From the IMG/VR virus record IMGVR_UViG_3300045988_152494, positions 1-39,821 of that record: a DNA stretch of 39,821 nt; one strand, given 5' to 3'. Position numbers: made by a program. Positions 24,001-27,000 of the stretch are shown piece by piece (position 1 is the first letter of the stretch; each line of letters starts with the position of its first letter). This DNA comes from a virus (lineage: Duplodnaviria; Heunggongvirae; Uroviricota; Caudoviricetes).

Positions 24001-27000
24001 CGCATGACACCCAGGAAGACCAGAAGCTGGTGCTGTGTTAATCCGGCCAGCATCACAGCTTCCAGCAACTCATTTGCAATGCGCGTATAACCATCATCGA
24101 GATCTGCCACGCGCGGCTCCTTTTGTGCCGCATCCGGCACTGGAAAATTGAATATCTCAGCAGTGTTTGCCATAATTCCTCCCGCAATGAGTGTGTTACG
24201 ATTTGCACCTGAAAGTCGGTTCTGTTCCAGCAGACCGGCTTTCGCCATTTCTGAACCTGTCATATTGCCCCCAGCATGGTGGTGACCATCGCCATCAGTG
24301 GACCAGCCAGATCTGGGTCCACACGAAACATCGACACAATACCTTCACTAATTTCCTTCAGTTTCTGGTGGCGTGGTGCGTTGAGAATGACAGCCTGTTT
24401 TGCCTCACTGAGTTCCTTTTCCATTTCAGCCAACCTAGCCATAAAGCTATCCTGCTCAACCAGGTAACCGCGATATTCCAGCGGTAGTACCGCCAGAATT
24501 GCCGGGGTCAGTTCACGCACGTTATTTCGGTATTTTTCAGAATCGAATTTGTTATCGAGGAAGCGGAACAGCTTCTGGCGTGCACGGCTGACATCATCAG
24601 GGAAATCGATGGTGCCGCCGCCCTGCTCCCGATACTCATTCACAATGAGTGCGGCAACAACATCCTGATTATCTGCAGCCGACCACGCGCGAACGGCATC
24701 ACGGATTTTTTCGTGGCCTGGCACCTGTTTTATTTGAGAACGATTTATCACCGCAGTCGGGCTAAATCCGCTAGTCTGTTGGTATGTAAGTGGTTGCATA
24801 GTCATTGCCTTATCAGTTAACGCCGCAGTTTAGGCGGCAGAATTACTCGCGTTAAACAATGGTGCAAGGTCGGGACGAATATCTGCTGGTTTAATCTTTC
24901 CACCAGTGGCTGAGACAATTTTCATTACATAGCGGGCATCAATTCCGCCACCGTGTAGCCAACGCCAAACAGTGGGCTGGGCTACACCGCATAGATCTGC
25001 CAGTCGTTTTTGACTACCTGTAATACTGATTGCGAGTTGAATGGTTTGATTTGTCATTATCAATTCCTATTGGTATTACAATGAATGGATAATAGCAATG
25101 CGTATTAATCCAATCAATAGCAAAACGTGTTTTGACCATCAATACGCAAGCGTATAAATTAAAACTTATGAAAAAAGAAACTCTTGCTGATCGCTTAAAC
25201 CTAGCGATGGAACAATCTGGAATGTCTCAAGGCGCTCTTGCAAAGGCGTCTGGCGTAGCTCAACCCACAATCTGGAGACTGACAAGCGGCAACGCACGCG
25301 GCTCAACAAAAATTGTTGAAATAGCTAATGCATTGGGTGTTCGAACAGAGTGGCTCTCATCAGGCATAGGCCCGATGAGAAATGACGGTCAACAATCAGG
25401 GAAGCCTGCTGTCAACCATTCCAAATACTTCAAAATTGACGTTCTTGATATAGAAGTCAGTGCTGGGCCGGGTGTCATCAACCGTGAGTTTGTAGAAGTC
25501 CTACGCTCGGTTGAGTACTCGTTTGACGATGCTCGTCACATGTTCGATGGCAGGAAGGCAGAAAATATCCGCATCATTAACGTACGCGGTGACAGCATGT
25601 CAGGAACGATCGAACCAGGTGATCTTCTGTTCGTTGATATCACTGTTAAATCTTTCGACGGTGATGGTATCTATGCGTTTCTGTACGACGACACAGCCCA
25701 TGTAAAGCGCCTGCAAATGATGAAGGATAAGCTGCTGGTTATCTCTGATAACAAGAGCTACTCACCGTGGGACCCGATCGAAAAAGACGAAATGAATCGG
25801 GTATTTATATTTGGGAAAGTTATTGGGAGCATGCCACAGACATATAGAAAACATGGGTAGATTATTAATGACAGATTTCATCAAGATAACCAGATGATGT
25901 TTTGGTGAGACATGCTGACATCCTCATAATTTATAGAATGGATGTTTCAAGCAGAGCTTAAGGTATATGGATATGTCAAAAAAAAATTTTGAATTCAAAA
26001 ATTACCCAATAGTCTTTATTGGCTCAGGCATTTCAAAAAGATATTTAGAGAACTACCCAACGTGGGAAGAGCTATTAAACGAGTATTGGAAAATAACAAA
26101 TCCCACAAATGATTTCTATAGTTATCTTTTAACAATAAAAGAATCACATAAAAATAACAGTGATAATGATATCGATCATAAGATTTATACAGAGGCAGCA
26201 AGTAAAATTGAAAATGATTACAATCTATTGTTTAGGACTGGCAAATTAAAATTAAATGGACTAGATGCCAAGAGGGTTTTTAGTGAAGATATTTCACCAT
26301 TTAAATACGCCATATGCCAAAGATTTTCTAATAACACAATCAGAAAGGATGTAAATCTTGATGAATTAGCATCATTTAAAACATTAATAAAAAAGGCCAA
26401 GATAATCATCACTACAAATTATGATGCTTTCATAGAAAATTTACTTCAAGAGCAAAATGTAACTCCAAAACTCTATATTGGAAATAATGGTTTTTTCGAA
26501 GATACTATTGGCTGGAGTGAGTTATACAAAATACATGGTGATATAAAGGATCCACACTCAATAATCATAAATAAAGATGATTACGAAAAATATGACAACA
26601 AATCTATACTCATTAGTGCCAAGATACTATCTAACATGATTAAAAATCCAATAGTTTTTCTTGGATATTCTTTAACTGACAGGAATGTAAAGAAACTTCT
26701 TTCTGATTTTTCCTCACAACTACCTAGAGAAGATGGTCGAAAATCAGCTGAAAGAATAATTTTGATTGAATATAAAGAGAATGAACAGGAAGTAGTACCA
26801 AAACAGATTACCGATCAACAGCTACAAATTACATATACATCTGTTAAAACAGATAACTATAAACAGATCTATGATGAGATCAGTGCTGTTGATGAAGGGC
26901 TCTCACCTTATGATGTTTTAAGGTATCAAAGAGCCATTAAAACACTTATCATTAATGAGGGTGAAAAAGGGCACTTAGATACTCTATTGGTTTCACCTTC

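What the first reader, a model, noticed from the sequence alone, without database searches (positions are those of the whole stretch)
25058..25167. Operator-like GCTATTG/CAATAGC half-sites in the cro-cI spacer, repeated on the far side of the SIR2 gene
Seen in sequence: CTATTG, ATAGCAAT and CAATAGC occurrences in the 110-bp divergent promoter spacer. The same heptamer occurs four times at 27852..27894, including the perfect palindrome CAATAGCTATTG. Inference: these are the OR and OL operator sets of the CI-like repressor, which would place the SIR2 gene inside the immunity region like rexAB.
Basis: partly seen in the sequence, partly recalled or inferred. Interest (0 to 1): 0.4.

Follow-up and report, generated by a model that had tools for sequence, protein, structure and literature searches.

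The report
Prophage repressor operators flanking a SIR2 gene
The repeated GCTATTG/CAATAGC words are half-sites of the 18-bp binding sites of a lambda-like prophage repressor, placed on both sides of the repressor gene and of a SIR2 gene that is probably an anti-phage defence gene; this is a textbook arrangement with a new passenger gene.

Summary
The heptamer is the half-site of an 18-bp dyad, CAATAGC-N4-GCTATTG (loosely YAATAS-N6-STATTR). The cro-cI spacer has four such sites: 25061, 25090, 25115 and 25140. The last three lie 25 bp apart and overlap the predicted PR and PRM promoters as in lambda. Beyond the SIR2 gene, two strong sites (27841, 27866; 25 bp apart) overlap a predicted PL that reads into kil-gam-bet-exo.

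The main evidence is comparative. Five E. coli phages and five prophages from Kluyvera, Citrobacter and Raoultella share the CI recognition helix (the five phages share the whole DNA-binding domain). All carry the same dyads at OR and a 25-bp pair 1.1-2.2 kb downstream of cI, although the flanking DNA and the genes in between differ. Phages with a different recognition helix carry an AACAAC-type motif at both places instead.

The SIR2 gene (Pfam SIR2_2, PADLOC candidate PDC-S25, about 30% GC) therefore sits in the rexAB slot, a known mosaic hotspot. In E. coli it is always linked to this immunity type (166 of 166 genomes). No binding or expression data exist. Verdict: a new member of a known kind, of modest interest.

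The parts
24830..25057 (-). cro-like gene (75 aa, YdaS-family HTH)
   Evidence: Pfam YdaS_toxin 1e-14; phrog_35 transcriptional repressor. It is 100% identical in four homoimmune phages compared. Its helix 3, GVAQPTVWR, matches CI's GVAQPTIWR.
25061..25078 (.). Fourth operator-like dyad, CAATTCC-TATT-GGTATTA, in the cro leader just downstream of the predicted PR start
   Evidence: One mismatch to YAATAS-N6-STATTR; 17.1 bits with the independent matrix. Across genera the half-sites are conserved and the centre varies. It overlaps the cro Shine-Dalgarno sequence, which could explain part of that conservation.
25089..25117 (-). Predicted PR: -35 TTGATT (25112-25117), 17-nt spacer, extended -10 TG-n-TATTAT (25089-25094)
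   Evidence: Promoter scan. Consensus match only; the transcription start is not mapped.
25090..25107 (.). OR1, TAATAGC-AATG-CGTATTA; fills the PR spacer and overlaps the -10
   Evidence: Perfect match to the degenerate dyad; 13.9 bits; nearly invariant in 11 loci.
25115..25132 (.). OR2, CAATAGC-AAAA-CGTGTTT; overlaps the PR -35 by 3 bp and abuts the PRM -35; centre about 42-43 bp upstream of the predicted PRM start
   Evidence: Two mismatches, with a weak right half; 8.3 bits, rank 12. It lies 25 bp from OR1 and from OR3 and is conserved across genera.
25132..25160 (+). Predicted PRM: TTGACC, 17 nt, TAAATT; the start falls at or next to the cI ATG, so the cI mRNA is probably leaderless
   Evidence: Promoter scan. 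No Shine-Dalgarno sequence precedes ATG 25168. The leaderless start is an inference by analogy with lambda PRM.
25140..25157 (.). OR3, CAATACG-CAAG-CGTATAA; lies inside PRM
   Evidence: One mismatch; invariant in 11 loci. Half-sites of the AATACG type recur in OL sites of other genera. It is not in the top 25 of the E. coli-only matrix.
25168..25860 (+). cI repressor (230 aa): 434-like HTH plus S24 autopeptidase domain
   Evidence: Pfam Peptidase_S24 1e-18 and HTH_3. The nearest solved N-terminal domain is the 434 repressor. Ala99-Gly100, the GDSMS serine and the VKRL lysine can be read.
25967..27574 (+). SIR2-domain cargo gene (535 aa) in the rexAB position
   Evidence: Pfam SIR2_2 1e-23; PADLOC PDC-S25 1e-235; phrog_2695. 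TTNYD and YKIHGD align with the ThsA TTNYD/YKMHGD motifs that hold its catalytic Asn and His. GC is about 0.30 against about 0.50 in the neighbouring phage genes.
27581..27605 (+). GC-rich hairpin just after the SIR2 stop codon; possible weak terminator without a U tract
   Evidence: -14.3 kcal/mol, z = -1.5. Comparator phages instead have a canonical terminator upstream of OL.
27841..27858 (.). OL2, CAATACT-AATC-GCTATTG; overlaps the PL -35 by 3 bp
   Evidence: Perfect degenerate match; 21.9 bits. It aligns in register with OL2 of homoimmune phages.
27856..27884 (+). Predicted PL: TTGACT, 17 nt, extended -10 TG-n-TATTGT; reads into kil-gam-bet-exo
   Evidence: Promoter scan. The same layout (TTGATA, 17 nt, TATTAT) is seen in the comparators.
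27866..27883 (.). OL1, CAATAGC-TATT-GCTATTG, with perfect 7-bp arms; fills the PL spacer and overlaps the -10
   Evidence: Top hit of the window, 25.7 bits. It lies 25 bp from OL2, as in all 10 comparator loci.
27888..27894 (+). Solitary GCTATTG half-site at the predicted PL start; it forms a direct 7-4-7 repeat with the right arm of OL1
   Evidence: It is absent in the comparators. Its function is unknown.
28162..28368 (+). kil, the first recognisable gene downstream of PL
   Evidence: phrog_294 Kil 1e-37; annotated as Kil in the comparators.

Best explanation
The window holds the immunity region of a lambdoid (Bievrevirus-like) E. coli prophage. CI (25168-25860) and Cro (24830-25057) share the recognition-helix sequence AQPT(I/V)WR. 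Both most likely bind, as dimers, 18-bp dyads made of two 7-bp half-sites, CAATAGC-N4-GCTATTG.

At OR, sites 25090, 25115 and 25140 lie 25 bp apart. OR1 and OR2 cover PR. OR2 abuts the PRM -35 at about -42, the position from which lambda CI activates PRM. OR3 lies inside PRM. A fourth site (25061) covers the cro leader. At OL, sites 27866 and 27841 cover the -10/spacer and the -35 of PL.

In a lysogen, CI would therefore shut off cro/O/P transcription in one direction and kil/gam/bet/exo in the other, while maintaining its own synthesis. The SIR2 gene lies between cI and OL on the cI strand, with no predicted terminator or strong promoter in between. It is most likely expressed with cI from PRM, like rexAB, as a lysogen-expressed NADase-type defence gene.

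Shown: sequence, geometry, conservation and co-variation. Inferred: binding, repression, activation, possible OL-OR looping over 2.8 kb, and co-transcription.
For: Motif statistics:
- Five heptamers lie within 43 bp at OL (0 of 5000 local shuffles).
- The degenerate 18-mer has three perfect hits in 39.8 kb, all in OR or OL (expected 0.01). Five of the six hits with at most one mismatch are in OR or OL.
- A matrix built only from OL sites of other phages, whose DNA there has no blastn similarity to the window, ranks 27866, 27841, 25061 and 25090 among the top six hits.

Promoters:
- The scan finds PR, PRM and PL exactly where lambda geometry predicts. In both PR and PL, O2 overlaps the -35 by TTG and O1 fills the spacer and overlaps the -10.

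Comparative evidence:
- Five phages whose CI residues 1-76 are identical carry CAATAGC-type pairs in register at OL, although their flanks and cargo differ; Cro was compared in four of them and is identical.
- Five loci from Kluyvera, Citrobacter and Raoultella with the same recognition helix (CI 56-83% identical overall) have hits with at most one mismatch almost only at OR (three sites) and at a pair exactly 25 bp apart, 1.1-2.2 kb downstream of cI. The one exception is a stray hit inside cI in L014.
- In the OR alignment, 9 of 72 site columns vary against 26 of 38 non-site columns (p = 4e-9). The variable site columns are mostly the N4 centre and the end positions.
- Heteroimmune phages (recognition helix SQAAIQKI) share the same flanks but carry AACAAC-type motifs at both OR and OL. 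This is repeated in a Klebsiella grimontii locus. The window has none of that motif at either place.

Proteins and cargo:
- CI is HTH plus S24 peptidase.
- The SIR2 gene is identified. Its linkage to this immunity type is 166 of 166 E. coli genomes.
Against: - There are no binding, footprinting, transcription-start or expression data.
- The 18-mer pattern was defined after seeing the sites, so its shuffle statistics are partly circular.
- OR2 has a weak right half. OR3 scores poorly with the E. coli-only matrix.
- Invariance across OR2-OR3 could reflect the PRM promoter rather than the operators.
- Conservation of site 25061 could partly reflect the cro ribosome-binding site.
- No convincing OL3 exists in the window, and the half-site at 27888 is unexplained.
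- A looser pattern allowing 3 mismatches is not enriched over the whole window.
- Co-transcription of SIR2 with cI rests only on the absence of a predicted terminator or promoter in the 106-bp gap.
Confidence: 0.85

Rival explanations
1. The inverted heptamers at 27852-27872 (GCTATTG-N7-CAATAGC followed by a T-rich stretch) act mainly as an intrinsic terminator for the cI-SIR2 transcript, not as operators.
For: The terminator scan flags this hairpin on both strands. It folds at about -10.7 kcal/mol, z = -2.4. The window lacks the canonical terminator that the comparators carry upstream of OL.
Against: The stem is AT-rich and weak. Such a hairpin arises automatically wherever two palindromic operators are adjacent. 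It does not explain the same dyads in the cro-cI spacer, the constant 25-bp pairing across 11 loci, or the motif swap that tracks the recognition helix. In the comparators the equivalent stem is only about 5 bp. At most this is a secondary role.
Confidence: 0.05
2. The dyads are bound by a protein other than CI: Cro alone, the YdaT/CII-like protein, or a host nucleoid protein that prefers AT-rich DNA.
For: No binding data exist. Cro shares the recognition helix, so Cro binding is expected in any case. The regions are AT-rich.
Against: The motif changes together with CI residues 1-46 and with Cro, while the cII-like, O and P genes and the CI C-terminal domain stay similar in the heteroimmune phages. 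Host factors would not track phage immunity type. The position on PRM, PR and PL fits CI/Cro logic.
Confidence: 0.07
3. The words are chance repeats in AT-rich intergenic DNA, or remnants of cassette recombination at the cargo boundary.
For: Both regions are about 27-30% GC. The exact heptamer occurs only once in the OR spacer. The right-hand homology break with related phages (27925) lies close to the cluster.
Against: 0 of 5000 local shuffles reach the observed count. The sites are conserved in register across genera while their flanks diverge. In the comparators the cargo boundary lies about 150 bp upstream of OL, beside a terminator, not at the dyads.
Confidence: 0.01

Closest known systems
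Phage lambda immunity region (OR1-3, OL1-3, PR/PRM/PL, cI-rexAB)
   Same: cro and cI are divergent. Dyad operators are spaced about 24-25 bp apart. O2 overlaps the -35 by TTG and O1 overlaps the -10 at both PR and PL. OR2 lies next to the PRM -35 and OR3 inside PRM. The cI start is probably leaderless. A cargo gene lies between cI and OL on the cI strand, and OL and OR are about 2.8 kb apart. (Lambda's layout is from established knowledge; this window's layout is.)
   Different: The operators are 18 bp (7-4-7, CAATAGC) rather than 17 bp. There is a fourth site in the cro leader. Only two clear OL sites are present. Cro is of the YdaS family and the 'cII' is of the YdaT family. There is no N-like gene between PL and kil. 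The cargo is SIR2, not RexA/RexB.
Phage 434 repressor and P22 c2 repressor operator systems
   Same: The N-terminal domain of 434 repressor is the nearest solved relative of this CI's HTH domain. P22 c2 operators are also 18-bp dyads (from memory, not tested here). Repressor and Cro share recognition-helix residues.
   Different: The half-site sequence is unrelated: 434 uses ACAA-N6-TTGT over 14 bp. Similarity to 434 is weak (E about 1e-5) and limited to the fold of the HTH domain.
Homoimmune Bievrevirus phages 4A7, Lambda_4C10, Perceval, PhiR30_1, PhiR68_2, PhiR70_1
   Same: The cro-cI segment is about 97% identical in DNA. The CI DNA-binding domain is identical, and so is Cro where it was compared. 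They have the same OR sites and the same type of OL1/OL2 pair and PL.
   Different: They carry other cargo genes (for example ASCH-domain, transmembrane or hypothetical proteins). They have a canonical terminator upstream of OL and a different OL/PL allele. None carries the SIR2 gene.
bstA of Salmonella prophage BTP1 and other defence genes downstream of cI
   Same: A defence-type gene lies immediately downstream of the prophage repressor and presumably shares its promoter. The cI-to-N interval is a recognised mosaic hotspot (PMC8585504, read).
   Different: BstA is unrelated to SIR2. No self-immunity element of the aba type was looked for or found here.
Thoeris ThsA and other SIR2 NADase defence proteins; PADLOC candidate PDC-S25
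   Same: There is a SIR2_2 domain whose TTNYD and YKIHGD motifs align with the ThsA motifs that hold its catalytic Asn and His. The match to the PDC-S25 model is full-length.
   Different: There is no SLOG domain and no TIR (ThsB) partner. The C-terminal ~250 residues have no family match. PDC-S25 is listed in PADLOC as a candidate, and I found no paper validating it.

Membership tests
Lambdoid CI/Cro immunity region with OR and OL operators | Divergent repressor (HTH plus S24 autopeptidase) and cro genes separated by a short spacer | tested here: met
   ORFs; Pfam Peptidase_S24, HTH_3 and YdaS; 110-bp spacer 25058-25167.
Lambdoid CI/Cro immunity region with OR and OL operators | Three or more related dyad-symmetric sites in the spacer that overlap divergent sigma-70 promoters | tested here: met
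   Sites at 25061, 25090, 25115 and 25140. They overlap the predicted PR and PRM. Phylogenetic footprint p = 4e-9.
Lambdoid CI/Cro immunity region with OR and OL operators | A second set of the same sites over the early-left promoter, on the far side of cI | tested here: met
   Sites 27841 and 27866 lie on the predicted PL. The same 25-bp pair is present in 10 comparator loci.
Lambdoid CI/Cro immunity region with OR and OL operators | Operator sequence co-varies with the repressor/Cro recognition helix (immunity specificity) | tested here: met
   AQPTIWRL goes with CAATAGC dyads in 11 loci. SQAAIQKI goes with AACAAC motifs at OR and OL in L004, L005, L009 and L015.
Lambdoid CI/Cro immunity region with OR and OL operators | Repressor binds the sites and represses PR and PL; a lysogen is immune to homoimmune phages | not testable with these tools
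   Needs gel-shift or footprinting assays, reporter fusions and immunity spot tests.
Lambdoid CI/Cro immunity region with OR and OL operators | LexA-type self-cleavage motifs (Ala-Gly site, Ser and Lys dyad) | tested here: met
   A99-G100, S143 in GDSMS and K180 in VKRL are read from the alignment; S24 domain. This holds at sequence level only.
Phage lambda sensu stricto early-left operon | N antiterminator gene immediately downstream of PL | tested here: not met
   The only ORF between PL and gam is 27958-28368. It has no Pfam hit and its last 68 aa are Kil. Comparators are annotated as PL-kil-gam.
rexAB-type immunity-region cargo | Gene(s) between cI and OL on the cI strand | tested here: met
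   SIR2 25967-27574 (+) lies between cI (ends 25860) and OL2 (27841).
rexAB-type immunity-region cargo | Co-transcribed with cI from PRM and expressed in the lysogen | tested here: inconclusive
   No terminator-like or promoter-like site is predicted in 25861-25966. The fold of the gap is not unusual, z = -0.6. RNA data are needed.
rexAB-type immunity-region cargo | Homology to RexA/RexB | tested here: not met
   Pfam, PADLOC and PHROGs give only SIR2_2, PDC-S25 and phrog_2695. The resemblance is positional only.
rexAB-type immunity-region cargo | Excludes superinfecting phages | not testable with these tools
   Needs plaque assays with and without the gene.
SIR2-domain NADase defence proteins (PADLOC PDC-S25) | SIR2 domain with catalytic Asn and His | tested here: met
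   SIR2_2 1e-23. TTNYD and YKIHGD align with TTNYD and YKMHGD of ThsA 6LHX.
SIR2-domain NADase defence proteins (PADLOC PDC-S25) | Full-length match to the family model | tested here: met
   PDLC04967 PDC-S25: E = 1e-235, residues 1-528 of the 528-position model.
SIR2-domain NADase defence proteins (PADLOC PDC-S25) | NAD+ depletion and a phage-resistance phenotype | not testable with these tools
   No experimental report was found.
Thoeris (ThsA/ThsB) | SIR2-SLOG ThsA together with an adjacent TIR-domain ThsB | tested here: not met
   The ThsA models match only residues 147-259. The neighbours are cI and OL/kil, and there is no TIR gene.

The most novel reading that the evidence does not exclude
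The SIR2 cassette (25861-27924) is a self-contained immunity-linked defence module. It brought its own OL/PL allele of matching specificity, which would explain why the gene is found only with this immunity type in E. coli (166 of 166 genomes). It also lost the canonical terminator that related phages keep upstream of OL. The OL dyads, as a weak hairpin and/or as a CI roadblock, would then also end the cI-SIR2 transcript and keep PRM read-through out of kil. The gene's 30% GC and its closest phage homologues in the lysogeny modules of Streptococcus and Lactococcus temperate phages would make it a cross-phylum passenger gene of prophage repressor operons.
Probability: 0.15. Interest if true: 0.45.

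Novelty: new member of a known kind. Interest (0 to 1): 0.27.

Why it matters
The work gives a concrete, testable operator map for a widespread E. coli prophage immunity type, including four OR sites, two OL sites, three promoters and the half-site consensus YAATASC. About 2,200 of 5,426 complete E. coli genomes match at least part of the queried region (mostly the conserved cI C-terminal part and kil leader, shared with other immunity types). I found no published operator description for it. It also places an unvalidated SIR2 candidate defence gene (PDC-S25), present in 166 complete E. coli genomes including many O157:H7 strains, under probable control of the lysogenic repressor promoter. That predicts constitutive expression in lysogens and suggests how to test the gene. 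Conceptually it adds one more case to the known rule that the cI-to-OL interval of lambdoid phages is a defence-gene slot. It does not change that picture.

Tried and rejected
- Literature searches for the GevT/GevA annotations and for the PhiR phage names or accessions returned only unrelated papers. One search failed on a term that was too short.
- Searching full texts for the operator strings found only an unrelated Streptococcus paper. The PDC-S25 mention could not be located in the version of the paper that is held.
- Rfam found nothing in the window.
- The consensus allowing 3 mismatches is not enriched window-wide: 20 hits against 15.6 expected. Only the stricter or matrix-based scans are informative.
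- OL3: no convincing third site in the window. The best candidate is CAATCAGAACAAGTATAT at 27813-27830, 28 bp upstream of OL2. Other genera show a half-conserved site 20 bp upstream of OL2.
- An alternative register, 25055-25072, for the fourth OR site was rejected. The C-to-T change at 25061 in 4A7 and Perceval fits the 25061-25078 register and not the other.
- The stray hits at 21129 and 15768 are treated as chance: 11.5 hits with at most 2 mismatches are expected.
- The terminator reading of the OL hairpin was rejected as the main function.
- The PL leader 27891-28165 is not unusually structured, z = -0.9.
- Searching the phage collection with the kil leader added no further immunity type beyond the two already seen.
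- I did not run the large protein-homology searches or structure prediction for SIR2, because they do not bear on the operator question.
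Full report
**Context.** The window is a lambdoid prophage of E. coli. Around the finding, the genes are:
- P (22546-23247, -) and O (23244-24263, -);
- a CII-like YdaT-family gene (24260-24805, -);
- a Cro-like YdaS-family gene (24830-25057, -);
- a 110-bp spacer, then cI (25168-25860, +);
- a SIR2-domain gene (25967-27574, +);
- about 270 bp of non-coding DNA;
- kil (28162-28368), gam, bet and exo (+).

The cro-cI segment is about 97% identical to the Bievrevirus phages 4A7, Lambda_4C10, Perceval, PhiR30_1, PhiR68_2 and PhiR70_1. The full cro-cI-SIR2-OL segment is present at 99% identity or more in 166 of 5,426 complete E. coli genomes, including many O157:H7 strains.

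**Checking the observation.** At 27852-27894 there are five heptamers, not four: GCTATTG at 27852, 27871, 27877 and 27888, and CAATAGC at 27866. These are half of all ten occurrences in the 39.8-kb window. None of 5000 dinucleotide shuffles of the local AT-rich region reached five (mean 0.03). No whole-window shuffle put more than two within 60 bp. In the cro-cI spacer the exact words are only weakly enriched: the heptamer occurs once (83 of 5000 shuffles reach this) and the hexamer twice (8 of 5000). On exact words alone, the OR half of the claim would be thin.

**What the unit is.** The heptamer is the half-site of an 18-bp dyad with 7-bp arms and a 4-bp centre. OL1 (27866-27883) is CAATAGC-TATT-GCTATTG, with perfect arms. 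The other sites are:
- OL2 (27841-27858): CAATACT-AATC-GCTATTG
- OR1 (25090-25107): TAATAGC-AATG-CGTATTA
- OR2 (25115-25132): CAATAGC-AAAA-CGTGTTT
- OR3 (25140-25157): CAATACG-CAAG-CGTATAA
- a fourth OR site (25061-25078): CAATTCC-TATT-GGTATTA

Written as YAATAS-N6-STATTR, the window has three perfect hits, all in OR or OL (expected 0.01). It has six hits with at most one mismatch, five of them in OR or OL (expected 0.86). That pattern was defined after seeing the sites. As an independent check, I built a weight matrix only from the OL sites of the five homoimmune phages, whose OL DNA has no blastn similarity to the window. This matrix ranks 27866, 27841, 25061 and 25090 among the six best hits of the window. 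OR2 is twelfth and OR3 is not in the top 25. Pooling 26 distinct sites from 11 loci gives the half-site Y-A-A-T-A-S-C, with AATA almost invariant.

**Geometry.** The promoter scan finds three sigma-70-like promoters:
- PR on the minus strand: TTGATT, 17 nt, TG-n-TATTAT (25117 to 25089);
- PRM on the plus strand: TTGACC, 17 nt, TAAATT (25132-25160);
- PL on the plus strand: TTGACT, 17 nt, TG-n-TATTGT (27856-27884).

At both PR and PL, O2 overlaps the -35 hexamer by its TTG, and O1 fills the spacer and overlaps the -10. This is the arrangement of lambda (lambda's layout is from established knowledge). OR1, OR2 and OR3 are 25 bp apart centre to centre, and so are OL1 and OL2. OR2 abuts the PRM -35 with its centre about 42-43 bp upstream of the predicted PRM start. 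OR3 lies inside PRM. The PRM -10 puts the start at or next to the cI ATG, and no Shine-Dalgarno sequence precedes it. A leaderless cI mRNA is therefore likely, as in lambda; this is an inference. The fourth site covers positions about +4 to +21 of the cro leader.

**Comparative test: same repressor, different DNA.** In the five homoimmune phages, CI residues 1-76 are identical to the window's; Cro was compared in four of them and is also identical. Their similarity to the window stops at the cI stop codon and resumes only at 27925. They carry different cargo genes. At the aligned position upstream of 27925 they nevertheless carry CAATAGC(A/G)ATAAGTATTG and CAATAGCAATAGCTATTA, 25 bp apart, around a TTGATA, 17 nt, TATTAT promoter.

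A scan of one genome per bacterial species found six more loci. Five of them (Kluyvera intermedia, K. cryocrescens, K. georgiana, Citrobacter pasteurii and Raoultella lignicola) have the same recognition helix, with CI 56-83% identical overall. In each of these roughly 9-kb loci, hits with at most one mismatch fall at OR (three sites) and at a pair exactly 25 bp apart, 1.1-2.2 kb downstream of cI. L014 has three further hits: one stray inside cI, one overlapping OL2, and one 20 bp upstream of OL2 (the possible OL3). In an alignment of the 11 OR spacers, 9 of 72 columns inside the four sites vary, against 26 of 38 outside (Fisher p = 4e-9). The variable columns inside sites are mostly the 4-bp centre and the degenerate end positions.

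**Comparative test: different repressor, same flanks.** PhiR47_2, PhiR5_1 and PhiR34_1 share the CI C-terminal domain, the sequence flanking OL and the kil leader at 88-98% identity. PhiR26_1 has the same cI coordinates, but its operators were not examined. Their CI residues 1-46 differ (helix SQAAIQKI instead of AQPTIWRL) and their Cro is only 46% identical. At both OR and OL they carry AACAAC/GTTGTT-type dyads instead. The Klebsiella grimontii locus, which has the same alternative helix, repeats this: the motif clusters at OR and about 2 kb downstream of cI. An unbiased count of 6-mers present at least twice in both regions returns AATAGC/CAATAG for the window and its homoimmune relatives, and AACAAC for the heteroimmune group. 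The window has no AACAAC at either place. CI and Cro of the window share GVAQPT(I/V)WR, as expected for two proteins competing for the same sites.

**Most likely mechanism.** CI is an HTH protein, nearest solved relative the 434 repressor N-terminal domain. It also has an S24 self-cleavage domain with Ala99-Gly100, Ser143 and Lys180. In a lysogen, CI dimers would occupy OR1/OR2 and OL1/OL2 and block PR and PL. CI at OR2 would stimulate PRM, and OR3 would limit PRM at high CI levels. Cro would use the same sites in the opposite order after induction. Co-operative pairing across the 25-bp spacing, and OL-OR looping over 2.78 kb, are plausible by analogy but untested. I put about 0.85 on the sites being the CI/Cro operators.

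**The SIR2 gene.** It lies between cI and OL on the cI strand. No promoter-like or terminator-like site is predicted in the 106-bp gap after cI. Expression from PRM, as for rexAB, is therefore the simplest reading; it is inferred, not shown. The protein has a SIR2_2 domain. It matches the PADLOC candidate PDC-S25 over its full length, E = 1e-235, and phrog_2695. It keeps the TTNYD and YKIHGD motifs that align with those of ThsA. It has no SLOG domain or TIR partner, so it is not a Thoeris system.

The gene is about 30% GC against about 50% for the neighbouring phage genes. It is absent from 50,697 phage records at nucleotide level. Its closest phage homologues (42-49% identity) are in Streptococcus temperate phages, with a more distant one (37%) in Lactococcus phage BK5-T. 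In Javan227 the homologue also lies downstream of the repressor, in the lysogeny module. In E. coli all 166 copies occur with this cro-cI and this OL allele.

**The slot.** The same position holds many alternatives. Among prophages with this cro-cI it holds Ser/Thr kinase plus RuvC-family, HipA-family kinase plus DUF3037, Panacea-domain, ASCH-domain, DUF6932, DUF7946 or N-acetyltransferase genes. Among heteroimmune prophages it holds several of the same cargoes, a small lipoprotein gene, or nothing at all. Several cargoes thus occur with both immunity types. The literature already describes the cI-to-N interval as a mosaic hotspot that holds rexAB in lambda and bstA in BTP1 (PMC8585504).

**Rivals.** The GCTATTG-N7-CAATAGC hairpin is flagged as terminator-like and folds at about -10.7 kcal/mol. 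It is AT-rich, follows automatically from two adjacent palindromic sites, and explains none of the comparative data. At most it is a secondary function. That possibility is slightly more interesting here because the window lacks the canonical terminator (CCCGGCCACCGTGCCGGGTTTTCTTTT) that all comparators carry about 150 bp upstream of OL. It has only a GC hairpin without a U tract after the SIR2 stop codon. Binding by a different protein is unlikely because the motif tracks the CI and Cro helices. Chance is excluded.

**Verdict.** This is a textbook lambda-type immunity region with an operator specificity I could not find described. A candidate SIR2 defence gene sits in the known rexAB/bstA slot. 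It is a new member of a known kind, of modest interest (about 0.27).

Noticed in passing
window 25967-27574: The SIR2 gene is about 30% GC in a roughly 50% GC phage. Its nearest phage homologues (42-49% aa identity) are in Streptococcus temperate phages, with a more distant one (37%) in Lactococcus phage BK5-T. In Javan227 the homologue also sits downstream of the repressor, in the lysogeny module. This suggests a passenger gene of repressor operons exchanged across phyla.
   Followed up: partly
window 25861-27924; loci L001-L009: The cI-to-OL interval is a cargo hotspot. It holds HipA+DUF3037, Panacea, Ser/Thr kinase+RuvC, ASCH, DUF6932, DUF7946, N-acetyltransferase or lipoprotein genes, or is empty. 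Several cargoes occur with both immunity types. SIR2 occurs only with this one (166 of 166 E. coli genomes), and its cassette includes its own diverged OL/PL allele.
   Followed up: partly
window 27575-27840: The canonical intrinsic terminator and the roughly 100-bp conserved stretch that all comparator phages carry upstream of OL are missing here. Only a GC hairpin without a U tract (27581-27605) follows the SIR2 gene. How PRM transcripts are kept out of PL/kil is unclear.
   Followed up: partly
window 25061-25078: A fourth operator-like dyad lies in the cro leader downstream of PR. Its half-sites are conserved and its centre varies across genera. The heteroimmune group also has a dyad (AACAACC-TCCG-TGGTTAA) directly next to the cro ATG. 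Lambda has no such site.
   Followed up: partly
window 27891-28161: There is no N-like gene between PL and kil. A roughly 270-nt leader is 96-99% conserved across both immunity types. Rfam finds nothing, and the overall fold is not unusual (z = -0.9). A strong local hairpin lies around 28055-28075.
   Followed up: partly
window 25121-25134: The perfect palindrome CAAAAC-GT-GTTTTG overlaps the right half of OR2 and the PRM -35. It is almost invariant across genera. It may be only the weak OR2 half plus the promoter, or a site for another factor.
   Followed up: no
window 27888-27894: A solitary GCTATTG half-site lies at the predicted PL start. With the right arm of OL1 it forms a direct (not inverted) 7-4-7 repeat. 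It is absent from all comparator OL regions.
   Followed up: no
L011-L014, L016 (about 20 bp upstream of OL2): In other genera, a half-conserved third OL site (TAATAGC or TAATACT as left arm) lies 20 bp upstream of OL2, recalling lambda's OL2-OL3 spacing. The window has no clear equivalent.
   Followed up: partly
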